Positions 5,734 through 18,054 of a DNA stretch of 18,475 nucleotides are shown piece after piece (the first letter of the stretch is position 1; each line of letters starts with the position of its first letter). Under the pieces are notes generated by a model. That model did no database searches, was not told the origin of the DNA, and worked only from the letters and a program-made list of their open reading frames with translations. The stretch is from Candidatus Bathyarchaeia archaeon (lineage in GTDB: Archaea > Thermoproteota > Bathyarchaeia > Bathyarchaeales > Bathycorpusculaceae). The stretch lies in NCBI GenBank assembly GCA_038883795.1, contig JAVZLK010000032.1, positions 1-18,475 of the forward strand, read 5' to 3'. Position numbers and translations under genes: made by a program.

Positions 5734-6759
5734 TTAAGAAAGGTATTTTTTAATGAAATTGGCTACATCTATGGTTTCTATTCTGGAACCGCAATGGCTA
5801 CAGTATTGAATAGCTTCAGCTGTGGTTTCCCCGCTAATACGCACTGGTGCCCCGCAATGAGAGCAGTGATAGGTGATAGTGAAACCCCTTTCGCCCAATT
5901 GCCGAATTAAAGCATTTAAATCAAGCACAACGACCTCTCTTTTCTTACGCCTCATCTCCCCCGCCTTTTCCGGCATACCCAACTCTTCATAAATCCGCGC
6001 AGCCTCTTCGTAGCGCCCAACCTTTTCAAGATACTCCAAGTGGGGTTTAAGTCTCTTAAAATGTCGCATATACGCCTGTTGTAAAAGCTCTTCTCGCTTA
6101 AGTTTCACTCTGCTATATAGATCAGGATCATAAAATTTTGCGGAAAAAACATTATTGTCAACGTCCCAACCCACAGCCCAAACCTCTCCCGAACCTTCAC
6201 TCCCAATTCCGAAAATATTAGGCCAATCTGAATTACCCCACAAATTCTCGTAATCAGCCTTATACTCATTACCATAGCGGGATTCAACCGTATCCGTCCT
6301 TATACTTATGGCCCTTGGCTCACCAAAGTATGATTCCCACTCATCTATATCTGGCATATAGCCTCGGTATATCTCTTTCACATTATTGACATCAGCTACG
6401 AAAATGTTTGGAAAGAAAATTGCTATATGCCTTTCTCTCTCTTCTTTAATAACTTTCACTTTAGGCTGAGCCGCAAACGGTAAGCTTACCCAAAACACAA
6501 GAACAGCTAAAAGTGCAAGAGCGACGAATGCATATCGCCATGTTTCTGTAATGTAAGATGCAATAAAAGGTCCAATAAAAGGTCCAAGAGCGATTATAAC
6601 CACTAGGAACAATAAACTGGCCAACGCAATATACTTGGGGTAGTTCTCCTTTCGACGCACTTCTTCGATATATTTATGCTTTACTATAACTTCCGTGCCT
6701 TCTTCAGACCCTCTCTTCGCTCCGCTTCTAACTTGAATTGGAATATAACTATCTTCCAT
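5734..6759 (-). CDS. Membrane protein with two TM helices, a TPR-like helix pair and a C-terminal zinc ribbon
   Basis: Two hydrophobic stretches (~aa 43-70 and 76-96), GRYEEAARIYEELGMPEKAGEMRR, and CSHCGAP...YCSHCGS. GGAGG RBS upstream. Confidence 0.85.
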   Translation of the reverse strand: MEDSYIPIQVRSGAKRGSEEGTEVIVKHKYIEEVRRKENYPKYIALASLLFLVVIIALGPFIGPFIASYITETWRYAFVALALLAVLVFWVSLPFAAQPKVKVIKEERERHIAIFFPNIFVADVNNVKEIYRGYMPDIDEWESYFGEPRAISIRTDTVESRYGNEYKADYENLWGNSDWPNIFGIGSEGSGEVWAVGWDVDNNVFSAKFYDPDLYSRVKLKREELLQQAYMRHFKRLKPHLEYLEKVGRYEEAARIYEELGMPEKAGEMRRKKREVVVLDLNALIRQLGERGFTITYHCSHCGAPVRISGETTAEAIQYCSHCGSRIETIDVANFIKKYLS

Positions 6760-6791
6760 CCCAGATTCTCCTCCTTCTAAAAAACTTCAAA

Positions 6792-7178
6792 TTAGACAAT
6801 AGTTTTTCCCAAGTTAGGTTTTTTAGATTTTTTCAAGGAAGCTAATTCTCTTTCTTCCTCCGCTGTCAACCCTTCTTTCTTTTTCTTGCATTCCAGTTCG
6901 GCAACTCTCTCCTGCTTGATCTCCTTAACCATCAATCTTATTGCCTCAACATCGTTCATTTCATCAAAAGTCTTGCCGTATTTTTTGATTTGCCTTATTT
7001 TTTCTCTGGTTAATACAATAACATGTTGTATCCCTTTACTTGCCTCATTTTTGGGAATAAGCAGGGTTGCGTTACAGTAAGGGCACTTGACATACGAAAC
7101 ATCTTTAGTTATCTCTTCGGTTACATAAGCACCACAACGTGGACATCTGATAGCATGTGCTTCTCGCATAATCTTCAC
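6792..7178 (-). CDS. Zinc-ribbon protein with a charged helical C-terminus
   Basis: CPRCGA...CPYCNA. Co-oriented with, and 32 nt upstream of, the membrane zinc-ribbon gene. Confidence 0.8.
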   Translation of the reverse strand: MKIMREAHAIRCPRCGAYVTEEITKDVSYVKCPYCNATLLIPKNEASKGIQHVIVLTREKIRQIKKYGKTFDEMNDVEAIRLMVKEIKQERVAELECKKKKEGLTAEEERELASLKKSKKPNLGKTIV

Positions 7179-7273
7179 TTATCCTTTCGATTTTTGACAC
7201 TATATTATCTGAGCAATAAATTCTAATATTCTTTTACATTAATTAATAAGCATACCACTAGAGTTCTGGCTTT

Positions 7274-7288
7274 ATGAAAGGCGTTTTC
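7274..7288 (+). repeat. IS110 left sub-terminal inverted repeat ATGAAAGGCGTTTTC
   Basis: Exact reverse complement of 8530-8544; lies 5 nt inside the left core. Confidence 0.9.
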
Positions 7289-7290
7289 TG

Positions 7291-7430
7291 ATTAGTGCTT
7301 AGGCTGGCCGGTCTGGCGACTAACTGGTCTTTACGACCGGCGTTCTGACTGGACCGTGCCTTGAGCTGCTAAAGAAAAGGGCTTTGCGCCCGGATGAGTG
7401 TTTGCAGCCTGAAGCCAGCCGAAATGAAGT
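7291..7430 (+). ncRNA. Candidate bridge/seek RNA in the IS110 5' non-coding end (boundaries approximate)
   Basis: Stem GCCGGTC(7307-7313)/GACCGGC(7335-7341) encloses GCGACTAAC, the reverse complement of target GTTAGTCGC. GTTCTG (7342-7347) equals the left target. ATGAGTG (7394-7400) and AAGCCA (7412-7417) match the two halves of the circle junction. Confidence 0.6.
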
Positions 7431-7450
7431 GAAAGGGGGTGAAGTGGGTA

Positions 7451-8497
7451 ATGAGGTATGTAGGTGTGGATATCAGCAAGAGGAAGTGTATGGTTGCGGT
7501 TGTTGATGGGGATGGCGTTTTGGTTGATGAGTTCAGCTTTGCTAATGATGTTGAAGGCATAAAACGGTTTGTTTCTAGGCTTTCAGAAGGCGATTCAGTA
7601 GTTATGGAGTCTACTGGCAATTTGTGGTTTAACTTGTTTGAGGCTGTTGAGGCTAATGGCGTTAGGGCAGTTTTGGCTAATCCTTTGAAGATGAAGGCTA
7701 TTGCTTCTGCTAAAATTAAGAATGATAGGGTTGATGCTAAGGTTTTAGCCTTTCTATTGCGCGGTGGGCTTGTGGCTGAATGTTATGTTCCGCCCAAAGA
7801 AGTTAGGGAGCTTAGGGCTTTGGTTAGGCATAGGGTTCAGCTTGTTAGGGCTGTTGGCATGGTGAAGAACCGAGTTCACAGTTTGCTTGACAGGCATGGG
7901 TTTAGGCATAACTTTTCAGATGTTTTCGGCCGGGCTGGGTTGGAGTGGCTTAGACGTTTGGAGGTTAAGCCTTTGGATAGGCTTCTATTGGAAAGCTACA
8001 TTGAACAAATTGAATGTCTTGAAAGGTTGATAAGGAGGGTTGATGCTGAAATCGAAGGAAAAGCTGCCATAGATGGGGATGTTAGGCTACTGCTTAGCTT
8101 GACTGGCGTTGGCGTTTGTTCGGCTTTGCTTATTAAGAGCGAGATCGGCGATATCAAGCGTTTTCCAAACTATAAGAAGCTTGTCAGCTGGGCTGGTTTG
8201 GCTCCTTCTCTTTACCAGTCTGGGAATACTATGCGTTATGGGCGTATTACGAAGCAGGGTTCTAAGCTGCTTAGGTGGGTTATGGTTGAATGCGCCAGAG
8301 TTGCTGTCCGCTATGATGTTAGGCTTGGCGAGTTTTATAGGCGGGTTAGGCGTAGGCGTGGTGAGCAGAAGGCTTTGGTTGCTGTTGCTTGTAAGATGTT
8401 GAAGATCATATGGTTTATGTTGACTCGTAGGGAGCCTTACCATTCCATGAATGAACGTTTATACGGCGATAAGCTTTATAGGCTTTTGAGGCATTAG
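7451..8497 (+). CDS. IS110-family transposase/recombinase
   Basis: RuvC-like DEDD residues (YVGVDIS, VVMESTG, KNDRVDA) and a C-terminal domain with GVG, WAGLAPSLYQSG and ITKQGSKLLR. GGGGGTGA at 7435-7442 favours ATG 7451 as the start. Confidence 0.97.
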   Translation: MRYVGVDISKRKCMVAVVDGDGVLVDEFSFANDVEGIKRFVSRLSEGDSVVMESTGNLWFNLFEAVEANGVRAVLANPLKMKAIASAKIKNDRVDAKVLAFLLRGGLVAECYVPPKEVRELRALVRHRVQLVRAVGMVKNRVHSLLDRHGFRHNFSDVFGRAGLEWLRRLEVKPLDRLLLESYIEQIECLERLIRRVDAEIEGKAAIDGDVRLLLSLTGVGVCSALLIKSEIGDIKRFPNYKKLVSWAGLAPSLYQSGNTMRYGRITKQGSKLLRWVMVECARVAVRYDVRLGEFYRRVRRRRGEQKALVAVACKMLKIIWFMLTRREPYHSMNERLYGDKLYRLLRH

Positions 8498-8529
8498 TTT
8501 AACTGCTGGCTTTGGGTTCGGGTCTGGCG

Positions 8530-8544
8530 GAAAACGCCTTTCAT
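8530..8544 (-). repeat. IS110 right sub-terminal inverted repeat GAAAACGCCTTTCAT
   Basis: Exact reverse complement of 7274-7288; lies 3 nt inside the right core. Confidence 0.9.
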
Positions 8545-8547
8545 GAG

Positions 8548-8568
8548 TGTTAGTCGCTGCTAAGAGAA
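8548..8568. promoter_or_regulatory. 9-6-9 palindrome copy 1, split by the IS110 (its first bases TTC are at 7264-7266)
   Basis: Reconstructed empty site TTCTGTTAG-TCGCTG-CTAAGAGAA. Confidence 0.65.
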
Positions 8569-8588
8569 AAGCGACGAGCAGTTGTCAA

Positions 8589-8612
8589 TTCACTTAGACG
8601 TTACTAACAGAA
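8589..8612. promoter_or_regulatory. 9-6-9 palindrome copy 2
   Basis: TTCACTTAG-ACGTTA-CTAACAGAA. Confidence 0.6.
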
Positions 8613-8722
8613 CAGCACAAAATAGTTTTTAAAAGCTAAAAAATTGCATAGAGAAACTGTGCAAATGAAGGAGGTTTGCCGCAATTTATGTTTTTCTGTT
8701 GCTTGCACAGAAGGTTTTTAGT

Positions 8723-9855: not shown

Positions 9856-9879
9856 TTCTGTTAGTGTCTCCTAACAGAA
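9856..9879. promoter_or_regulatory. 9-6-9 palindrome copy 3 (perfect arms)
   Basis: TTCTGTTAG-TGTCTC-CTAACAGAA, between the divergent regulator and first NosD gene. Confidence 0.7.
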
Positions 9880-10041: not shown

Positions 10042-11172
10042 ATGAAAAGAATTGTTTCTGAAATAATGACAGTCTTATTTCTTACAAGCATGTTAATATC
10101 GGCGTTTAACATTCAACCTGTGAAGTGCGAGTGGACTGGGGGAACCATATATATTAGCACTGATGGAAGCATAGAGCCGGCAAATGCACCAGTAATAACT
10201 TACGATTATGTGACTTATACCTTAACTGATAACATTGGAAGCTCCGCGCATGGAATCGTTATCAAAAGAGACAACATTATAATTAATGGAATGGGCTACA
10301 CAATTCGGTGCATAGGCTCAGGCTCTTACAGAGGAATATCCCTTGAAAATAGGAAGAATGTTACAATAAAGAATACAAAAATAAAGAATTTCTATTATGG
10401 TATTTACTTTAATTATTCCTCAAACTGTGAAATATACGGGAATAGCATAACATCAAATACTGAAGGCATCTACTTTGGGGGCGATTCTTCAAATAATGCG
10501 ATATGTGAGAATGACATTGCAGTGGACGAGTGGATGAACTGCGGCATCCATCTCATATATTCCTCAAATAACACGATATACAAAAACAATATGATAGTGA
10601 CATCTGGAGATGGCATCCTAGTCGAGCAATCGTCGAATAATGAAATATGTGAAAACAGCATATGTGCCCAAATTCTATTTAATAGTTGGGCTGGTATATA
10701 TCTCAAGCAGTCCTCAAACAACAAGATATACGGAAATGACATAAAGGAAAATTCGAACGGCATTTACTTCGAAGGTTCCTCAAATAACGCTATTTATGGA
10801 AACAACTTAACACGGAACCGTGTGGGCATCTGGCTTCAACACGCCTCAAATAACAAGTTTTATCATAATAACTTCGTGCAAAACCAATGGTATCAAGTCT
10901 ATACTTTTAGTTCTGTAAATGTTTGGAACGATGGGTATCCTTCAGGTGGCAATTACTGGAGCGATTACTTGACGCTGTATCCTGGCGCTGACGAGCTGGA
11001 CAATTCTGGCTTATGGGATACGCCTTACGTTATTGACAAAGATAACCAAGATCACTATCCTTTAATACATATATATGCCATACCAGAATTCTCGTCAGCC
11101 ATAATCCTGCCACTATTATTAGCATCGACACTGCTGGTCGCCATATTCGCAAAAAGAAAAAATCCGAATTAA
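10042..11172 (+). CDS. Cell-surface NosD/CASH parallel beta-helix protein with PEF-CTERM sorting signal
   Basis: Signal peptide, repeated GIxLxxSSNNxIxxNxI turns, WNDGYPSGGNYWSDY, and C-terminal IPEF + TM helix + basic tail. Confidence 0.92.
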   Translation: MKRIVSEIMTVLFLTSMLISAFNIQPVKCEWTGGTIYISTDGSIEPANAPVITYDYVTYTLTDNIGSSAHGIVIKRDNIIINGMGYTIRCIGSGSYRGISLENRKNVTIKNTKIKNFYYGIYFNYSSNCEIYGNSITSNTEGIYFGGDSSNNAICENDIAVDEWMNCGIHLIYSSNNTIYKNNMIVTSGDGILVEQSSNNEICENSICAQILFNSWAGIYLKQSSNNKIYGNDIKENSNGIYFEGSSNNAIYGNNLTRNRVGIWLQHASNNKFYHNNFVQNQWYQVYTFSSVNVWNDGYPSGGNYWSDYLTLYPGADELDNSGLWDTPYVIDKDNQDHYPLIHIYAIPEFSSAIILPLLLASTLLVAIFAKRKNPN

Positions 11173-11294
11173 AAATTTTATAAATCCAAATATTTGGCCC
11201 ATTTTTCTGAAAAATATGGAAATGCATCTTAACCTTGATATTTTGAACAACATGTAAACTAGCCCGGACCACAATACAATATTCGCCGCCTTGG

Positions 11295-11318
11295 TTGTTT
11301 TAATGTCTGTTAACAGAA
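11295..11318. promoter_or_regulatory. 9-6-9 palindrome copy 4 (degenerate left arm)
   Basis: TTGTTTTAA-TGTCTG-TTAACAGAA; the spacer differs by one base from copy 3. Confidence 0.5.
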
Positions 11319-11374
11319 ATTGCAAGCTTAAGTCAAAATGCAACGAGGTAAATAGTTATGTTGAAAGAACTAAT

Positions 11375-11399
11375 AGAGGATTCTTCCGTAAATTTTAAG
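11375..11399 (+). promoter_or_regulatory. Putative promoter block of the large surface-protein gene
   Basis: AGAGGATTCTTCCGTAAATTTTAAG begins 66 nt before the ATG and parallels 9974-9998. Confidence 0.55.
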
Positions 11400-11440
11400 T
11401 CCACTTTGCCGGCTATTTTATTTGGAAAGGAGCAGACAAA

Positions 11441-14400
11441 ATGAACAAGGCCATTTCTGGAGTAATGTTAACATTGCTAATTTTATCAAGTATGTTAGCT
11501 TTCGCGTTTAATATTCAACTAGTCAAGGCAGACTATGTATGGAAAGAAACCATTTACATTCGTGCAGATGGAAGTATAACACCTTCAGATGCACCTCTCT
11601 TTACGGCGGATAAGGTAACCTATGTGCTAACAGATAACATTGTAGATGCAGCTCCATATACCGGCGATACCGCAGTAATCATAGAAAGGGATAATATAGT
11701 GTTCAATGGGAATGGCTATACAATTCAAGGCAAAAATAAAGACCACACTTGCTATGGAATGGATCTTACTGGAAGAAGCAACGTCACGATCAAAAACTTA
11801 AACATTAAAAGCTTCGATTATTGCCTCCGCTTAGAATTTTCTTTAGGCAATACGCTGTATGAAAATAACATAGCAGACAACTATTATGGAGTTTATCTTG
11901 TGTCTTCCTCACAAAACATTCTGGCAGGAAATACTATTTCAAGAAACCGTAATTGTGGCGTTTATCTGGACGTATCTTCAAGCAATACTTTGCTCCGAAA
12001 TAATATTCTAAATAACCTTTATGATATTGAACTTTCATCCTCCGTCAGTAACACCATATTCGGAAACAACATAACAGATAGCAGTATGGCTGGTATTCTC
12101 TTAGGTGGTTCTTCTCGATATAACATGATTTTTGAGAATTACATATCAAACAATGGTTATGGCATCTGGATTTCAGGGACGGAAGACAACATTTTCTATC
12201 ACAATAATTTTGTAAACAATGGTATGCAAGTCTATTTTTCCTACACATGGCCAACGAATATATGGGATAATGGTTATCCCTCAGGTGGTAATTTTTGGAG
12301 CGACTACACAGGGGTTGACGAGAAAAGCGGTCCCTACCAGAATGAAACTGGAAGCGACGGAATAGGTGACACGCCATACATCATTAACGCTAATAATCGA
12401 GACCAGTATCCACTCATGAATCCACCAACTATGCCGTCAAAGCGGGATCAGTGGCCAATGTTTCGTCATGACAAGCAGCGAACGGGCAGAAGTGAATTCA
12501 ATGGTCCTCATACACCTCAAGTTAAATGGACCTTTGATACAGGCGGTAACGTTTTTTCACCAATAATAGGCTCTGATGGCACTATCTACGTGCATTCAGG
12601 TGGCAATAGCAAAAACCTTTACGCAATAAGCCGGGATGGTTCTTTGAAGTGGAGCTTCCACGTGGAGAGCTCTTACTCCGCTCCAGCCGTAGGACCAGAT
12701 GGTACCATATACTTCGGATCATACGATAAGAAATTTTACGCGTTAAATCCGAATGGAACATTAAAGTGGTATTTTCAAACAGGAGGATACATTTACTCTT
12801 GTCCCGCGATAGATTCTGATGGTACCATATACTTCGGATCATACGATGGATATTTATATGCCCTTAACCCAGATAGTACGCTTAAATGGGCATATTACGC
12901 TGGTCGCCAAATAGATACCTCTCCTGCTATATCATCTGATGGCACTATTTACGTGTTCTCAACTGGGTTCTCAATTAATGACCCGGCTATACTCTACGCC
13001 GTAACCTCTAACGGCACTCTGAAATGGACTTATAAGGCGCCTATGGGCGTTATTGCATGTTCTTGCCCTGCTATAGGTTCAGATGGTACGATATATTTCG
13101 GATGCTTTGACGGTAAACTTTACGCTTTAAACCCCGATGGAAGCTTGAAGTGGAATTATCAAGCACAAGATGACATCGTCTCTTCTCCTGCAATAGGACC
13201 CGATGGTACCATATACTTCGGATCATACGATAAAAGATTCTATGCTTTAAACACTGATGGTAGCTTAAAATGGTGGCGCTGGACAGAGGGCCCCATTTAC
13301 TCATCCGCTGCTGTAGGAGCTGATGACACAGTATACTTCGGATCCTCTGATGGATATATTTACGCCTTTAACCCTGATAGCACTCTTAAGTGGAGCTACC
13401 AAACGGGTTATGCGATTGGCTCATCTCCAGCAATAGGCTCAGACGGTAGCCTATTTATAGGTGCAGGTCCAATACTCTACGCTTTTGGCACTGGCTCAGA
13501 CTTCCTAATTAAAGCTTCCCCAACTTTATTAACTATTCAACAAGGCAGTTCAGCCGAATCGACCATCACGGTAACATCCATAAATGGCTTCAGCCAACCT
13601 GTTCAACTAAGTGTGTCCGGGGCGCCTTCTGGAGTTACGGCAATCTTAAATCCGGTGCAGGTTACACCGCCTTCAGACGGCTCAACTACTTCTATCTTAA
13701 CAGTATCGGTTGATGCAACAGTTAATGTTGGAACTTACACTTTAACTGTGATTGGAACAAACGGCACTCTAACCCATAGTGTGGATATCTTTTTGCATGT
13801 AGTAGCTTTGCCAAAGTTTGTTTTGGTTCCTTCTGAGGGTTGGCAACGCTTGGAGCTTTTCGTTCCAACATGGCGGCGTTCCGCTGAATATCCTGGAAAA
13901 GTGGTGTTTGAAATTTTTAACAAGCGTGACATGTGGTATATTATTAAAGTCTACAAGAGGATGCCTGACAATACTTGGCAGGAGGTGATTCCCGACGAAT
14001 TTTTAAGCCTAACTGGACCATATCTGGGACCTTATAGTGTTAAAACTTTCGTTTTTCCATACGTTCTTGAAGAAGGCGATGAGATAAAGATTGAAGTTTG
14101 GAATGACTTGAACGACAATGCACTTCGCGCCCTATGGGCTTTAGACTTTAGCGTGAGAGCTTTGCTGGGAATATCCATATCACCTCAAATCACAAACTGG
14201 CCTGAAATCAAAACCAAACTTCTAACATTCTATAATGGCTACTTGGAAGCTATAGGGAATCTTTGCCTCGGAAAATGGAAGCTTGGGCTATTGCAGCTGT
14301 GTAAGGCTTTGGTGGGAAGTGCTGCGTCAAGGGAATTTGCCGAAATAATTAATCTCCTCGGAGTTCAAACAACAGCTGCAACCATAGCCAGAATCGCCTT

Positions 14401-15751
14401 CAAAGTTATAACATCAGCTTTTTGGCTAATTCCAAACGTACCATTATGGTGGCCCCTGTTTGAAAATATGAACAGAGAACCGTTCATGGAAGATGTCATT
14501 TTTACGGTTAAGGGAACTGGGACAGAGCTCCCTAATCTGAAGGTGATCGAAGGCTTAACAATAGTTCAAAGTGAGCCATATTATGTAGGCGAAACTATTG
14601 ATGCCCAATTCACCTTAAGAAGTGAAGATGAATCACCAGTAACATTACATGTGTTAATGGTTGGAGGACTTGGACCTCGGGGAGAAATCCAAGACTTCAC
14701 CTTCAAGACTAATATAACGATTAATCCAGGCCAATCCTACATGTATGAAGGCAAAATGCAATTAATAAGTAATGGCACATACCATTTCTTCATAGCCTAC
14801 CAAACTCCTGAAGGAGAATGGGTCACCAACGTGCCAACGGATGCTGACGCAGTAAACTCCCTAGACATCAATGTTCAAATTCCAGAAGTTCTTATTGGGG
14901 CTGAGCTTTGCAGTCCAGGAGAATTGCGGATTTATGACTCTCAAGGCAGGGTTACTGGCTTATTAAACGGTGAGGAATTAATGGAAATTCCTAACTCATT
15001 CTATCATGACGGCATAGTTGTCATATACTATCCAAACGACTCCTATAGGTTTCAAGTTAAGGGTGTAAGTGAAGGAGAATACAACATAACCTTAGGAAGA
15101 TTTTTCTATGAAAACTTAACAACGTTTGAAGCTACAAGAATACCAATAAGTAACAATTCTCTGCATCAATTCACCTGCGACTGGGACACCCTCTCCATAA
15201 ACGAGGAGGGCGTCCTCATTTACGTGGATTCAGACGGCGACAACTTTTTCGAGAAAACCTTCCCCTCAGATAGTGAGTTAACAGCCAAAGAGTTTATGTT
15301 CCCAGCGAAGGCGACATTCACATTTAATGCCCTCTGGGAGGGTGCTAACTACCCCATCACCATGTACAGTAGCAACTCTTCAATAACAAACTTCAACTTC
15401 AACCAATCAGAGAAGCAAATAACCTTTCAATTATCAGGCGAAGCAGATGAATCTGGCTATTGTAACGTTTCCATACCAAAAACTCTTCTTAAGGGCGAAC
15501 CTTGGATTGTTAAGCTTAATGGAACAAACTGGAACTATACAGCGACAGAAAACGAAACCCACAGCTTCATATACATCACTTATACGTTTGGCAGCGCTTT
15601 CGAAGTTGCAATCCAAGGAACATGGGTCGTGCCAGAATTCTCGTCAACCATAATTTTAACATTATGCATGCTTACAATTTTAGTCATAACCATTCTCATA
15701 AGAAAAAACAAAATTCCTAAAATCCTAAGGCAGAAAATTATACATTTGTGA
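11441..15751 (+). CDS. Large multidomain surface protein: NosD beta-helix, PQQ/BamB-like beta-propeller, Ig-like domains, unknown helical region, PEF-CTERM
   Basis: Signal peptide, beta-helix turns and WDNGYPSGGNFWSDY, then WPMFRHDKQRTG and ~8 repeats of SSPAIGxDGTIYFGSYDxxLYALNPDGSLKW, an Ig-like Ser/Thr-rich module, and C-terminal VPEF + TM + basic tail. Confidence 0.92.
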   Translation: MNKAISGVMLTLLILSSMLAFAFNIQLVKADYVWKETIYIRADGSITPSDAPLFTADKVTYVLTDNIVDAAPYTGDTAVIIERDNIVFNGNGYTIQGKNKDHTCYGMDLTGRSNVTIKNLNIKSFDYCLRLEFSLGNTLYENNIADNYYGVYLVSSSQNILAGNTISRNRNCGVYLDVSSSNTLLRNNILNNLYDIELSSSVSNTIFGNNITDSSMAGILLGGSSRYNMIFENYISNNGYGIWISGTEDNIFYHNNFVNNGMQVYFSYTWPTNIWDNGYPSGGNFWSDYTGVDEKSGPYQNETGSDGIGDTPYIINANNRDQYPLMNPPTMPSKRDQWPMFRHDKQRTGRSEFNGPHTPQVKWTFDTGGNVFSPIIGSDGTIYVHSGGNSKNLYAISRDGSLKWSFHVESSYSAPAVGPDGTIYFGSYDKKFYALNPNGTLKWYFQTGGYIYSCPAIDSDGTIYFGSYDGYLYALNPDSTLKWAYYAGRQIDTSPAISSDGTIYVFSTGFSINDPAILYAVTSNGTLKWTYKAPMGVIACSCPAIGSDGTIYFGCFDGKLYALNPDGSLKWNYQAQDDIVSSPAIGPDGTIYFGSYDKRFYALNTDGSLKWWRWTEGPIYSSAAVGADDTVYFGSSDGYIYAFNPDSTLKWSYQTGYAIGSSPAIGSDGSLFIGAGPILYAFGTGSDFLIKASPTLLTIQQGSSAESTITVTSINGFSQPVQLSVSGAPSGVTAILNPVQVTPPSDGSTTSILTVSVDATVNVGTYTLTVIGTNGTLTHSVDIFLHVVALPKFVLVPSEGWQRLELFVPTWRRSAEYPGKVVFEIFNKRDMWYIIKVYKRMPDNTWQEVIPDEFLSLTGPYLGPYSVKTFVFPYVLEEGDEIKIEVWNDLNDNALRALWALDFSVRALLGISISPQITNWPEIKTKLLTFYNGYLEAIGNLCLGKWKLGLLQLCKALVGSAASREFAEIINLLGVQTTAATIARIAFKVITSAFWLIPNVPLWWPLFENMNREPFMEDVIFTVKGTGTELPNLKVIEGLTIVQSEPYYVGETIDAQFTLRSEDESPVTLHVLMVGGLGPRGEIQDFTFKTNITINPGQSYMYEGKMQLISNGTYHFFIAYQTPEGEWVTNVPTDADAVNSLDINVQIPEVLIGAELCSPGELRIYDSQGRVTGLLNGEELMEIPNSFYHDGIVVIYYPNDSYRFQVKGVSEGEYNITLGRFFYENLTTFEATRIPISNNSLHQFTCDWDTLSINEEGVLIYVDSDGDNFFEKTFPSDSELTAKEFMFPAKATFTFNALWEGANYPITMYSSNSSITNFNFNQSEKQITFQLSGEADESGYCNVSIPKTLLKGEPWIVKLNGTNWNYTATENETHSFIYITYTFGSAFEVAIQGTWVVPEFSSTIILTLCMLTILVITILIRKNKIPKILRQKIIHL
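12698..13231 (+). repeat. Three identical 30-nt blocks in the propeller repeats
   Basis: GATGGTACCATATACTTCGGATCATACGAT at 12698-12727, 12818-12847 and 13202-13231. Confidence 0.9.
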
Positions 15752-15799
15752 AAACCCAAACTGAAATGGATAATACAAGTATTGAAAGGGAGTTAATTC

Positions 15800-16405
15800 A
15801 TGTTTGAGGCGACTGATGTTATCGCAATTATTATATCCGTTATTTCTTTTGCCGTATCTCTTTTTATGTATCGCATCTCAAGGGAAAATCTTTCGTTGAA
15901 TGCGTTCATGAAAGCTATTGAAATTTGGGGTTCAAACGAGGTGAGAGAAGCACGGAGATATATACGTGAATGTTTTCCTGATTACTCTAAGGGTGAAGAT
16001 TTAACTGGAGAAAAAATGGAATTAAAAATTCAAAATGGAGAACAGATTAAGCGTGGATATCTTAAAGTCAGAGAGTTAAGTAGTGAAGAGAGAGATTATT
16101 TTGAGAAAATAGCAGTGACCGCGGACAGGGTCGGTTTTATGTTGTTTGAGTTAAAAAACTTGCCTAAGAGATTTAAAAGAGCCTATCTTGATTGGTTATA
16201 TGACACTTTTTATAGCATATGGAATAAGATTGCGCCTCATGTAAATAGAGAAAGGGAAGCACGACGCTTTGTTCCATATTTTGAAAAGCTGGCGTATTTA
16301 GGATATTATGTATCTTTAAGGGAGAACAGAAATAACAAAATTGTTCTTTTAGATCCCAAAAAGATGGAAGAGGCATTACAGGAATATAAAAACTTGTGGA
16401 ACTGA
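15800..16405 (+). CDS. N-terminally membrane-anchored protein, DUF4760-like
   Basis: N-terminal TM (VIAIIISVISFAVSLFMY) and a helical domain with EVREARRYI, ADRVGFML, WNKIAPHV and PYFEKLA, a pattern I associate with DUF4760. GGGAG RBS upstream. Confidence 0.65.
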   Translation: MFEATDVIAIIISVISFAVSLFMYRISRENLSLNAFMKAIEIWGSNEVREARRYIRECFPDYSKGEDLTGEKMELKIQNGEQIKRGYLKVRELSSEERDYFEKIAVTADRVGFMLFELKNLPKRFKRAYLDWLYDTFYSIWNKIAPHVNREREARRFVPYFEKLAYLGYYVSLRENRNNKIVLLDPKKMEEALQEYKNLWN

Positions 16406-16643
16406 CTTAACAAAGAAGGAACGCAAGCATAAATTTTGATACTTTTTCTTTTGCCAATATTGACGGAAAAGGAAAGCTGGCCAATAGGTTTTATCAGCGT
16501 TCGTGTTAACCTCAAGATTACTACTCTCTGAATCCATAGTTCAACCCAAGACAATCATATCGAATCCTACTAAATCTGATAGGCAAGTGTAAGAAAATTT
16601 TATGGAGTGCGCTACAAGTATAAACCTAAGGATAGAAAAAATT

Positions 16644-17807
16644 TTAGGGGATTTGGGGTTTTGTTTCTTCCTTTTTCTTCAGAGGAACTGTTACGATTAA
16701 AGTGGCTAGCACGAATAGTGGTAAAATTATGATTGATGGAAATTCTGGCACGACCTTCATAAGCGGATACCTGTCTTTGTTGTTCTCATCTATAACGTAT
16801 GCTGTGTCACCTATTCCATCTCCATTTGCATCAACACCAGTGTAATCGCTCCAGTAGTTTCCACCAGAAGGGTAGCCATCATCCCAAACATTAGGACTGC
16901 TGTCGCTATAAACTTGCTGGGTGTTGTTTACGAAGTTGTTATGGTAAAACTTGTTGTATGTTGCGAACTCTATATAAATGCCATACGTATTTTTTGTTAT
17001 ATTGTTTCCGGATATTATATTATTTTGAAGAGGGCTGCTTGAATAACCTTCCATACGAATGCCATACGTATTTCTTGTTATATTGTTTCCGAATATTATG
17101 TCGGAAAAGTCGAGATCAATACCACTCTTACTGTTTGCTATGATGTTCCCTGATATTGTTATACGTTGCGATCCGACATTGATGCCTGTGCCGCTTTTTG
17201 CTGTTATATTGTTTTCATATATTTTGTTGTCAAGGCAAGACCAGTAGGTGCCGCCCCCAACGACGATACCATCTCCAACATCTACTGACACTATGTTTTG
17301 AAATATTAGATTGTCATAACAATTACCCAAAAGATAGATGGCAGCCCTGTTGTATCCTGTCGCCATTATACTATTTTGGAATATTGTATTGTTTGAACAG
17401 TGACTAATCAGATAGATGCCCCACCAGTTGTTTGCTAAGCTATTTTCAAATATTTTACAGTTTGAAGAATACTCGAGATAAATGCCATAATCGCTGTCCC
17501 TTATATATGTGTTCTTGATTGTTATATTAGCTCTATTGCTGAGTCGGATTGCTCCTCCCTGAACCATGTAGCCTCCGCCGTCAAAAACTATGTTATCCCT
17601 CTCAATAACAATTCCTTCGTATACATTATTGGTTAACGTATAGGTAATGTTGTCGATCGTCGAAATTGGTGCGAGCGGAGGATAAATTGAACCGTCACCT
17701 TTAATGTATATGGTTGAGCCAGTTTTGGCTGATTGAATGTTAAATGCAAACATTAACGTGCCTATTAAAAGCAGACCTAACATTACGCTAGAAATAATTT
17801 TCTTCAT
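16644..17807 (-). CDS. Cell-surface NosD/CASH parallel beta-helix protein with PEF-CTERM sorting signal
   Basis: Start placed at MKKIISS (17807) by alignment with the paralogs MKRIVSE and MNKAISG. Has WDDGYPSGGNYWSDY, DGIGDTAYVID and VPEF + TM + basic tail. Confidence 0.92.
   Translation of the reverse strand: MKKIISSVMLGLLLIGTLMFAFNIQSAKTGSTIYIKGDGSIYPPLAPISTIDNITYTLTNNVYEGIVIERDNIVFDGGGYMVQGGAIRLSNRANITIKNTYIRDSDYGIYLEYSSNCKIFENSLANNWWGIYLISHCSNNTIFQNSIMATGYNRAAIYLLGNCYDNLIFQNIVSVDVGDGIVVGGGTYWSCLDNKIYENNITAKSGTGINVGSQRITISGNIIANSKSGIDLDFSDIIFGNNITRNTYGIRMEGYSSSPLQNNIISGNNITKNTYGIYIEFATYNKFYHNNFVNNTQQVYSDSSPNVWDDGYPSGGNYWSDYTGVDANGDGIGDTAYVIDENNKDRYPLMKVVPEFPSIIILPLFVLATLIVTVPLKKKEETKPQIP
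16977..17099 (-). repeat. Internal 42-nt duplication (2 mismatches, 81-nt period) in beta-helix turns
   Basis: 16977-17018 versus 17058-17099, encoding GNNITKNTYGI and GNNITRNTYGI. Confidence 0.85.
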
Positions 17808-18030
17808 TTTCCTTTCTTCTTCACTCATACAATCACGCATTTTACTATGTTCATTTTTGTTTTAAAATTTTCGCACACAACTAAGAAATATGCTCTATTT
17901 TAGAGATTTACTCATTATTTTTGTTTTATCCATCGTATTCCATCTCCGTCTATTATCGTATCTCCTTGCAATGTTGCTTTCTCCGTTATGCCTTCTCCGT
18001 TAGCATAGAGAGTATCATGTTCCTCCAATC

Positions 18031-18054
18031 TTCCGTTAGTCGCTGTTAATGGAA
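18031..18054. promoter_or_regulatory. 9-6-9 palindrome copy 5, with the same spacer as the IS110 target
   Basis: TTCCGTTAG-TCGCTG-TTAATGGAA, immediately upstream of the TATA-like TTTTAAAA (18057-18064). Confidence 0.6.

What the first reader, a model, noticed from the sequence alone, without database searches (positions are those of the whole stretch)
7264..8568. Archaeal IS110 whose 5' non-coding end carries guide-like matches to its palindromic target and its own circle junction
Seen in sequence: with a TG core, the empty site is GAGTTC-TG-TTAGTCGCTGCTAAGAGAA and the circle junction is CATGAG-TG-GCTTTATG. The ~180-nt left end contains GCGACTAAC (7316-7324), the reverse complement of target GTTAGTCGC, inside a loop closed by a 7-bp stem. 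It also contains GTTCTG (7342-7347, left target plus core), ATGAGTG (7394-7400, left donor plus core) and AAGCCA (7412-7417, reverse complement of core plus right donor). Established: IS110/IS1111 recombinases use bridge/seek RNAs that pair with target and donor DNA. Inference: this is an intact archaeal RNA-guided recombinase aimed at a repeated chromosomal palindrome. The right-target match precedes the left-target match, unlike IS621, and a 5' non-coding region is combined with 15-bp IS1111-like sub-terminal IRs. Each match is only 6-9 nt, so the case rests on their co-occurrence.
Basis: partly seen in the sequence, partly recalled or inferred. Interest (0 to 1): 0.85.

Follow-up and report, generated by a model that had tools for sequence, protein, structure and literature searches.

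The report
Archaeal RNA-guided insertion sequence (IS1111-type)
This is an intact jumping gene of a hot-spring archaeon that appears to carry its own guide RNA for choosing where to insert, a mechanism already known from bacteria, here in an unusual but not unprecedented layout.

Summary
Window 7269-8549 is an intact 1281-bp IS110-family element in a Bathyarchaeia-like genome. Its 182-nt left end encodes a conserved 123-nt RNA (7300-7422) with five helices. These are supported by compensatory changes in 62 relatives.

Across 62 related loci with both flanks, the 3' side of the first internal loop copies the left flank plus core. The 5' side is the reverse complement of core plus right flank. 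The core (TG or AG) changes in step in both flanks and in two guides. ATGAGTG (left-donor guide) is supported.

Two details fail. AAGCCA is the 3' strand of the closing helix, and it does not track the element's first bases. The 7-bp stem is not the conserved one.

The guide order "unlike IS621" is the published IS1111 order. A relative 46% identical in protein carries the same target-loop module downstream of its gene. So this is an IS1111-type element with its RNA at the 5' end, a layout already noted as an exception in print.

The target is a REP-like 24-bp intergenic palindrome (27 copies in this genome). No RNA or activity data exist. It is a new member of a known kind, of moderate interest.

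The parts
7261..7268 (+). Left half of the disrupted target: GAGTTC plus core TG (7267-7268)
   Evidence: It matches the left-target guide at 7342-7347. It is the left arm of the 24-bp palindrome family.
7269..8549 (+). The insertion sequence: 1281 bp, counting the right-hand core copy 8548-8549
   Evidence: Copy B in the same genome aligns to window 7271-8549 at 80% identity. The termini are shared with about 80 related loci.
7274..7288 (+). Left sub-terminal inverted repeat ATGAAAGGCGTTTTC. It holds a TTTATGAA stretch that may act as an archaeal TATA box about 25-30 nt before the RNA (inference only).
   Evidence: 15 nt, 100% complementary to 8530-8544. The TTATGAAAG motif recurs across the related left ends.
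7300..7422 (+). Predicted bridge/seek RNA. Helices: P1 7302-7308/7414-7420, P2 7310-7314/7351-7355, P3 7326-7329/7335-7338, P4 7365-7369/7404-7408, P5 7379-7382/7388-7391.
   Evidence: Alignment A2 of 62 sequences. 95.4% of cells pair, 11 of 25 pairs show changes on both sides, and 0 of 500 shuffles reach this. The minimum-energy fold of this copy reproduces the helices. Model R1 finds only this copy and copy B in the genome.
7316..7324 (+). Right-target guide, on the 5' side of the first internal loop. GCGACTAAC is the reverse complement of G(core)+TTAGTCGC at 8549-8557.
   Evidence: In relatives, contiguous complementarity anchored at the core is 6 nt or more in 43 of 62 loci, against 108 of 3734 mismatched pairings.
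7342..7349 (+). Left-target guide GTTCTG (7342-7347, same sense as flank 7263-7268), followed by AC (7348-7349). In relatives this AC usually equals the element's first two bases.
   Evidence: At least 4 of the 5 non-core positions match in 60 of 62 loci, and all 5 match in 43. Among mismatched pairings all 5 match in 10 of 3400. The two bases after the guide equal left-end positions 1-2 in 62 of 76 loci. In this copy only the C matches (AC against GC).
7370..7378 (+). 5' side of the second internal loop, UAAAGAAAA. It is the candidate (unproven) right-donor guide: UAAAG is complementary to element positions 2-6 (CTTTA, 7270-7274).
   Evidence: the loop's fourth base against left-end position 3 is Watson-Crick in 0.82 of 76 loci and Watson-Crick or G-U in 0.89 (mutual information 0.21). 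The signal is weak and confounded by relatedness.
7394..7400 (+). Left-donor guide ATGAGTG, same sense as the right end plus core (8543-8549)
   Evidence: The core base changes in step. In 9 loci with an AG core the guide reads ATGAGAG and the right end CATGAGAG. Distant relatives change the guide and the right end together: L110 ATAGATG, L111 ATAGGTG.
7412..7417 (+). It overlaps the 3' strand of P1 and is not supported as a guide.
   Evidence: P1 pairs are kept with compensatory changes. Most relatives start with ACTTT yet carry GCCAGC, ACCAGC or GCCGGC here.
7451..8497 (+). DEDD recombinase gene, 348 aa, stop codon included
   Evidence: Pfam PF01548 and PF02371. It aligns to IS621 (PDB 8wt6, E 3e-14), with D7, E53, D92, D95 and S257 opposite residues conserved in IS621, which I equate with its published catalytic residues. 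All five are invariant in 12 relatives.
8530..8544 (+). Right sub-terminal inverted repeat GAAAACGCCTTTCAT
8550..8568 (+). Right half of the disrupted target palindrome, TTAGTCGCTGCTAAGAGAA
   Evidence: Five other sites in the genome carry TTCTGTTAGTCG without an element.
8589..8612 (-). Neighbouring intact copy of the same palindrome family (loop TAACGT), 40 nt from the insertion

Best explanation
Window 7269-8549 is an intact IS110-family insertion sequence of IS1111 type in a Bathyarchaeia-like archaeon.

Shown here:
- It encodes a 348-aa DEDD/Ser recombinase.
- Upstream of the gene lies a conserved structured RNA of about 123 nt. It has a closing helix P1 around two stem/internal-loop/hairpin modules.
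- In module 1, the 5' strand of the loop is complementary to the top strand of core plus right flank.
- In module 1, the 3' strand of the loop copies the left flank plus core, so it would pair with the bottom strand.
- In module 2, the 3' strand of the loop copies the element's right end plus core.

Inferred from the published IS621 and IS1111 work:
- The RNA is made, perhaps from a promoter overlapping the left sub-terminal repeat and co-transcribed with the recombinase mRNA.
- It binds the recombinase.
- It holds the excised circle junction (CATGAG-TG-GCTTTATG) and the target (GAGTTC-TG-TTAGTCGC) together.
- The strands are then exchanged at the shared TG core.

The chosen target is one loop class (TCGCTG) of a REP-like 24-bp intergenic palindrome, TTCTGTTAG-N6-CTAACAGAA. 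Sister elements in other genomes carry guides for other loop classes of the same palindrome. How the left end of the element (the right donor) is recognised is not settled.
For: Protein:
- Pfam domains match.
- D7, E53, D92, D95 and S257 align with residues conserved in IS621, which I equate with its catalytic residues. All five are invariant in relatives.

Element ends:
- The sub-terminal repeat is a perfect 15 bp.
- Copy B ends at the same termini.

RNA structure:
- In 62 sequences, 95.4% of cells pair and 11 of 25 pairs show double changes. No shuffle of 500 reaches this. Slid controls pair at 19-39%.

Guides, in 62 non-identical loci with both flanks (of 83 parsed):
- Left-target guide positions -7 to -1 equal the locus's own flank in 50, 56, 61, 59, 60, 60 and 61 of 62.
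- All 5 non-core bases match in 43 of 62, against 10 of 3400 mismatched pairings.
- The right-target run is 6 nt or more in 43 of 62, against 108 of 3734.
- There are 46 distinct guide pairs, and 32 match on both sides.
- A blind mutual-information scan recovers the same columns.
- The core is concordant in left-target guide, left flank, right end and left-donor guide in 59 of 62 loci (50 TG, 9 AG).

Distant relatives:
- L110, L111 and L107 change the left-donor guide, and L110 and L111 change the right end with it.
- L110 (46% identity) has the same target module downstream of its gene. Its guides match its own junctions.

Target:
- 27 palindromes occur in the genome against 0-1 in shuffles, and 23 of 27 lie outside long frames.

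Literature:
- The guide order and long repeats match IS1111 (PMC11187229, passages and section 6). The mechanism comes from PMC11208160 and PMC11208158 (passages).
Against: - No RNA, binding or transposition data exist for this element or family. No RNA holder was listed.
- The right-donor guide could not be identified. Only a weak UARRG/CYTTA relation appears.
- 19 of 62 loci have a right-target run under 6 nt. This includes copy B in this same genome, whose guide resembles its flank only at a 3-nt offset, 7 of 8.
- One left-flank score of 0 (copy B) is an artefact of my fixed-offset rule. Its left end has one extra T. Read by eye, GCGCATG matches.
- Only one copy of this isoform is assembled, although five candidate empty sites exist.
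- The fold z-score for this copy alone is modest, -1.83.
- The related loci are kin, so locus counts overstate independence.
- R1 E-values are rough. The L110 hit is weak (E 4.5e-4 to 5.3e-3) and rests on my reading of its junctions.
- Transposase similarity does not separate IS1111 from IS110. It scores 67 bits (26% identity) to IS4321 and 56 bits to IS621.
Confidence: 0.88

Rival explanations
1. The RNA guides target choice only, as a 'seek' function. The element's own ends are recognised by the recombinase through the 15-bp sub-terminal repeats. Module 2 then plays a structural or partial role instead of being a full donor-binding loop.
For: No column of the RNA covaries convincingly with left-end positions 1-10. 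The sub-terminal repeats are long and highly conserved. For ISEc11, the short seekRNA carrying only the target matches was sufficient for transposition (PMC11187229, passages from the Discussion).
Against: The ATGAGTG segment follows the right end and the core through TG/AG and through ATAGATG and ATAGGTG in distant relatives. That is what a left-donor guide would do. Module 2 has the same stem/loop/hairpin geometry as module 1, with compensatory changes in P4 and P5.
Confidence: 0.25
2. The element is a recent but now inactive relic. The guide matches are real history but nothing moves today.
For: Only one copy of this isoform and one 80%-identical copy are in the assembly. Five matching palindromes are unoccupied. 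No contig joins 7268 to 8550, that is, no empty site for this locus was seen in four runs.
Against: The ORF is intact with all five catalytic residues. The 15-bp repeats are perfect, and the guides match the flanks without decay. Contigs in related hot-spring metagenomes join the same left end (7263-7271) and the right-flank position 8558 to other flanks (tables 7-8). Assemblies often collapse repeats.
Confidence: 0.2
3. The short matches between the left end and the flanks are chance, and the left end is only a 5' UTR or promoter region.
For: Each match in this copy alone is 6-9 nt. The fold z-score of this copy alone is only -1.83.
Against: GTTAGTCGC is 50-fold over expectation in the window. 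The same loop positions follow different flanks in 46 guide classes.
Confidence: 0.02

Closest known systems
IS1111-group elements with seekRNA (ISEc11, ISPa11, ISKpn4, ISPst6; Siddiquee et al. 2024, PMC11187229)
   Same: DEDD recombinase of about 330-350 aa. Long sub-terminal inverted repeats (15 bp here). The RNA segment complementary to the target's top strand lies 5' of the segment matching the bottom strand. Insertion is site-specific.
   Different: The long non-coding region and the RNA lie upstream of the recombinase gene (182 nt against 52 nt downstream), not downstream. The host is archaeal. Both loop modules sit inside one closing helix. Protein identity to IS4321 is only 26%.
IS621 and other IS110-group bridge RNAs (Durrant et al. 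2024, PMC11208160; Hiraizumi et al. 2024, PMC11208158)
   Same: The RNA is in the left end, upstream of the gene. It has two stem/internal-loop modules. Guides on the two loop strands pair with opposite DNA strands and overlap a 2-nt core. The recombinase has the same domains, and its Asp/Glu/Asp/Asp and Ser residues align.
   Different: [quoted passage not shown] Here the first loop is the other way round. IS621-type elements have only 2-3-bp sub-terminal repeats. The IS621 handshake bases sit next to the right-hand guides. Here the two extra bases that follow the element's first bases sit next to the left-target guide.
ISMtsp17, ISHvo10, ISAcp5: IS1111-related entries noted as exceptions with an upstream, or both, non-coding regions (PMC11187229, section 6)
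   Same: IS1111-type features combined with an upstream non-coding region. ISHvo10's name suggests a haloarchaeal (Haloferax) host (recalled, from no call). A Natrinema plasmid element 44% identical to this recombinase has an R1 match upstream of its gene.
   Different: I could not obtain those sequences, so relatedness is untested. The paper gives no RNA structure or guide assignment for them in the text I read.
REP-targeting IS110-family elements of Pseudomonas (ISPpu9, ISPpu10; PMC12288879 and bioRxiv 10.64898/2026.03.19.712850, search listing and start of abstracts only)
   Same: Insertion into repeated extragenic palindromes or a conserved intergenic sequence.
   Different: Bacterial hosts. 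The palindrome here is an unrelated 24-bp archaeal repeat of unknown function.

Membership tests
IS110 family (ISfinder sense: DEDD recombinase elements) | Recombinase with DEDD_Tnp_IS110 (PF01548) followed by Transposase_20 (PF02371) | tested here: met
   1.1e-30 and 3.5e-24, both above the curated cut-offs.
IS110 family (ISfinder sense: DEDD recombinase elements) | Catalytic Asp/Glu/Asp/Asp in the RuvC-like domain and the Ser of the SG motif | tested here: met
   the alignment to IS621 (8wt6) places D7, E53, D92, D95 and S257 opposite residues conserved in IS621. I equate these with the residues PMC11208158 names as essential. All five are invariant in 12 relatives.
IS110 family (ISfinder sense: DEDD recombinase elements) | Site-specific insertion with a shared core dinucleotide at both junctions and no longer target duplication | tested here: met
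   TG lies at 7267-7268 and 8548-8549. The core at the left flank and the right end is concordant in 59 of 62 loci.
Bridge/seek-RNA-guided recombinases | Non-coding RNA whose internal loop strands covary with the two sides of the target | tested here: met
Bridge/seek-RNA-guided recombinases | A second loop whose strands covary with both sides of the donor (circle junction) | tested here: inconclusive
   The left-donor side is met (core TG/AG, L110, L111). The right-donor side shows no clear signal.
Bridge/seek-RNA-guided recombinases | The RNA is expressed, binds the recombinase and is required for recombination | not testable with these tools
   The runs found are contigs only and none is on record as RNA.
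IS1111 group | Sub-terminal inverted repeats of 7-17 bp | tested here: met
   15 bp, perfect. The criterion is from PMC11208160 section 12 and PMC11187229.
IS1111 group | The longer non-coding region, with the RNA, lies downstream of the recombinase gene | tested here: not met
   The left end is 182 nt (7269-7450) and the right end 52 nt (8498-8549). The RNA is at 7300-7422. The paper allows 'a few' exceptions.
IS1111 group | [quoted passage not shown] | tested here: met
   [quoted passage not shown] The same holds in all parsed relatives.
IS1111 group | Transposase falls in the IS1111 clade across its full length | not tested
   No tree with ISfinder references was built. Raw similarity is equally low to IS4321 and IS621. 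The GL-P----SG motif is present, but IS621 shows it too.
IS110 group (IS621-like) | [quoted passage not shown] | tested here: not met
   The order in the first loop is reversed. The repeat is 15 bp.

The most novel reading that the evidence does not exclude
This archaeal lineage may be a separate, more recent case of the guide-RNA module moving from the 3' end to the 5' end within the IS1111 type. L110 would keep the old layout. The move would have produced a single RNA closed by P1, transcribed from an archaeal promoter built into the left sub-terminal repeat. The two bases after the left-target guide, which follow the element's first bases (AC, AT, TC, AA in separate lineages), would act as a bottom-strand 'handshake'. 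That would imply an order of strand exchange opposite to IS621.
Probability: 0.25. Interest if true: 0.6.

Novelty: new member of a known kind. Interest (0 to 1): 0.42.

Why it matters
It extends sequence-level evidence for RNA-guided DEDD recombination to Bathyarchaeia, Nitrososphaerota and a haloarchaeal plasmid. It also gives a worked case in which the same target-loop module sits at either end of related elements.

It shows an archaeal REP-like palindrome serving as a landing pad, with sister elements naturally re-aimed at different loop classes of it. The source appears to be hot-spring communities, so the enzyme could interest those seeking heat-stable programmable recombinases. Archaeal IS110 recombinases also bear on the proposed link to Nop5 and C/D-box RNPs (bioRxiv 10.1101/2024.06.21.599552, passages).

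The mechanism itself is known. A 2026 preprint already catalogues 86 bridge-RNA models over 32,190 loci (10.64898/2026.10.21.760802, section 8). This family may be in that catalogue already.

Tried and rejected
- Rfam found nothing in the window at gathering thresholds.
- The left flank (window 6500-7268) was sought in 30 relatives to find an orthologous empty site. No match was found in those searched.
- Sequencing runs: no RNA holder was listed. All four runs laid were contigs, and no contig joined 7268 to 8550. This says nothing about expression or excision.
- Model R1 gave no significant match on IS4321 (L112; best E 0.67). By eye I could not recognise the module in its 3' non-coding region.
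- I looked for a right-donor guide in three ways. These were a mutual-information scan, targeted tables and the variable end of the second loop against left-target bases. Only the weak UARRG/CYTTA relation came out.
- I looked for a handshake-like relation between the two bases after the left-donor guide and the first two right-flank bases. There was none.
- I did not build a recombinase tree with ISfinder references, because I could not obtain named IS1111 and IS110 reference sequences other than IS4321.
- Supplementary files of the papers were not seen. The supplementary tables and figures of PMC11208160, PMC11187229 and the 2026 preprint may already list this family or its layout.
- No listed paper held 'Bathyarchaeia' together with the other terms.
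Full report
**Observation.** Reading the window confirms every string and coordinate in the finding.
- The element runs from 7269 to 8549. TG stands at both junctions (7267-7268 and 8548-8549).
- Perfect 15-bp sub-terminal inverted repeats lie at 7274-7288 and 8530-8544.
- The left non-coding end is 182 nt. The ORF is 7451-8497. The right non-coding end is 52 nt.
- The ORF carries both IS110-family Pfam domains.
- It aligns to the solved IS621 recombinase, with D7, E53, D92, D95 and S257 opposite residues conserved in IS621, which I equate with its published catalytic residues. These residues are invariant in 12 relatives.
- GTTAGTCGC or its complement occurs three times in the window against 0.06 expected.
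- Rfam has no match at gathering thresholds.

**Other copies.**
- The genome (2.18 Mb, 81 contigs, 87% complete) holds one more copy, 80% identical, on another contig. It aligns exactly to the predicted termini.
- A scan of species-representative genomes gave 28 loci. All but one are labelled as archaeal MAGs, mostly Bathyarchaeia and Nitrososphaerota.
- A metagenome scan gave 80 more loci.
- From these I parsed 83 left ends. Of them, 66 have both flanks and 62 are non-identical.

**The RNA.** An alignment of 62 left-end segments (A2) supports five helices:
- P1 closes the whole RNA.
- P2 and P3 frame the first internal loop.
- P4 and P5 frame the second internal loop.

In this alignment 95.4% of cells pair. 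Eleven of 25 pairs change on both sides. None of 500 shuffles reaches this. Sliding the partners by 1-3 columns drops pairing to 19-39%. The minimum-energy fold of this copy alone gives the same helices with a modest z-score of -1.83.

**Guides for the target.**
- The 3' strand of loop 1 copies the left flank. Positions -7 to -1 (the core is -2 and -1) equal the locus's own flank in 50 to 61 of 62 loci.
- All five non-core bases match in 43 of 62 loci. At least four match in 60 of 62. Only 10 of 3400 pairings of a guide with the flank of a locus with a different guide match all five.
- One of the two poor scores is copy B. My fixed-offset rule misplaced its boundary, because its left end has an extra T. 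Read by eye, its guide GCGCATG equals its flank.
- The 5' strand of loop 1 is the reverse complement of core plus right flank. The contiguous run is 6 nt or more in 43 of 62 loci, against 108 of 3734 mismatched pairings.
- There are 46 distinct guide pairs. In 32 of them both sides match.
- A blind mutual-information scan of every RNA column against every flank position picks out the same columns with the expected sense.
- The 19 weaker right-hand cases include four loci with an extra AGTG between the right end and the matching flank. They also include copy B (see the list of things noticed in passing).

**Guides for the donor.**
- ATGAGTG, on the 3' strand of loop 2, copies the right end plus core.
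- The core is TG in 50 loci and AG in 9. It is the same in the left-target guide, the left flank, the right end and this segment in 59 of 62 loci.
- Relatives at 44-48% protein identity have changed this segment. Two of them changed the right end with it: L110 reads ATAGATG and L111 reads ATAGGTG. L107 reads ATAGCTG, and its right end matches except for the last core base.
Most relatives begin ACTTT yet read GCCAGC, ACCAGC or GCCGGC there, and those changes are compensated in P1. It is therefore not supported as a guide.
- I found no clear right-donor guide. The start of loop 2's 5' strand (UARRG) is complementary to element positions 2-6 (CYTTA), with a weak association.
- The two bases after the left-target guide equal the element's first two bases in 62 of 76 loci. 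These are AC in 54, AT in 6 and TC in 2. L107 adds AA and L110 adds AT. This resembles the handshake idea of PMC11208158 but on the other guide. It is a lead, not a finding.

**Which family.**
- In IS1111-type seekRNAs the top-strand complement comes first, the repeats are long, and the non-coding region is usually downstream, with a few exceptions such as ISMtsp17 (PMC11187229, passages and section 6).
- This element has the IS1111 guide order and repeats, but its RNA is upstream.
- Model R1 built from A2 finds the RNA upstream of the gene in a 48%-identical relative (E 3e-15). It finds it weakly upstream in a Natrinema plasmid element (E 5.6e-5).
- In L110, 46% identical, R1 finds only the first module, and it lies downstream of the gene (E 4.5e-4).
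- L110's sequence shows that this module's loop strands match its own junctions: AGAGGGTGAT on the left and GTTGAAAAA on the right. A left-donor segment follows the module. It also has 10-bp sub-terminal repeats.
- So the same module occurs at either end within this lineage.
- Protein similarity does not decide between the groups, and I built no tree.

**Target.**
- The rejoined flanks give one copy of a 24-bp palindrome, TTCTGTTAG-N6-CTAACAGAA.
- With at most one mismatch per arm there are 27 copies in the genome, against 0-1 in five shuffles.
- 23 of the 27 lie outside any open frame of 120 aa or more.
- The loops fall into a few classes. This element's right-target guide reads into the TCGCTG class.
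- Five more sites with TTCTGTTAGTCG are unoccupied.
- Sister elements at 85-90% protein identity in other genomes sit at the same position of the same palindrome. Those whose left end is held (L003, L004, L031, L035) keep the left-target guide and carry right-target guides for other loop classes, GTTAGTAAC or GTTAGTAAT. I read this as natural re-aiming.

**Distribution and activity.**
- R1 matches 16 of 151 sampled genomes of the class, with one to five copies each.
- Only contigs of hot-spring metagenomes hold parts of the stretch. In them the element's ends are joined to other flanks. That fits several insertion sites in those communities but is weak evidence.
- No RNA or excision data were obtained.

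**Verdict.** The main interpretation is supported by comparative evidence, with two details corrected. The mechanism is a known one. The layout is an IS1111-type RNA at the 5' end, in archaea. Print mentions this layout only as an exception, and bridge-RNA diversity has since been catalogued at scale (10.64898/2026.10.21.760802, section 8). I rate it a new member of a known kind, of moderate interest.

Noticed in passing
window 8589-8612 (-), 9856-9879, 18030-18053, and the disrupted copy 7261-7268 + 8550-8568: A REP-like 24-bp palindrome family, TTCTGTTAG-N6-CTAACAGAA. It has 27 copies in the genome against 0-1 in shuffles, and most are intergenic. The loops fall into a few classes (TGTCTC, TCGCTG, TCATCG, TAAATG). 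Its function is unknown. Many copies lie within about 1.5 kb of contig ends.
   Followed up: partly
L015, L051, L057, L059 right junctions; copy B at L002 about 2781-2784: In four unrelated insertions the right end CATGAGTG is followed by an extra AGTG before the flank that matches the right-target guide. Copy B has AGT there. This is a recurrent 4-nt duplication of the right terminus, with no explanation so far.
   Followed up: partly
L002 (G000:C8:42584-43863), copy B: The second copy in the same genome has a left-target guide that matches its flank (GCGCATG). Its right-target guide resembles the right flank only at a 3-nt offset, 7 of 8. This could be an off-target insertion or a decayed flank.
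   Followed up: partly
L107 junctions (about 190-200 and 1500-1515): The core reads TG at the left junction and TA at the right junction. The right-target guide agrees with TA, while the left-target and left-donor guides agree with TG.
   Followed up: no
L018, L017, L019: Close relatives of the element sit on contigs binned as Micrarchaeia, Promethearchaeati and 'bacterium'. This could be horizontal transfer or binning error. L018 carries a left end next to, and in opposite orientation to, another recombinase gene.
   Followed up: no
window 10042-17840: A cluster of three NosD/right-handed beta-helix proteins. One is a 1436-aa protein that also has beta-propeller domains. These are probably secreted or surface proteins.
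   Followed up: no
window 7244-8650 in run X1: Summed contig word depth over the element is 24-260, against 5-6 on both flanks. This suggests many related copies in that community. Summed depth is not a copy number.
   Followed up: no
alignment column 114 of the script alignment (window about 7356): A junction base just after P2 tracks the first core base: T with an A core, G or A with a T core (Watson-Crick or G-U in 0.94-0.98). This may be clade history rather than pairing.
   Followed up: no
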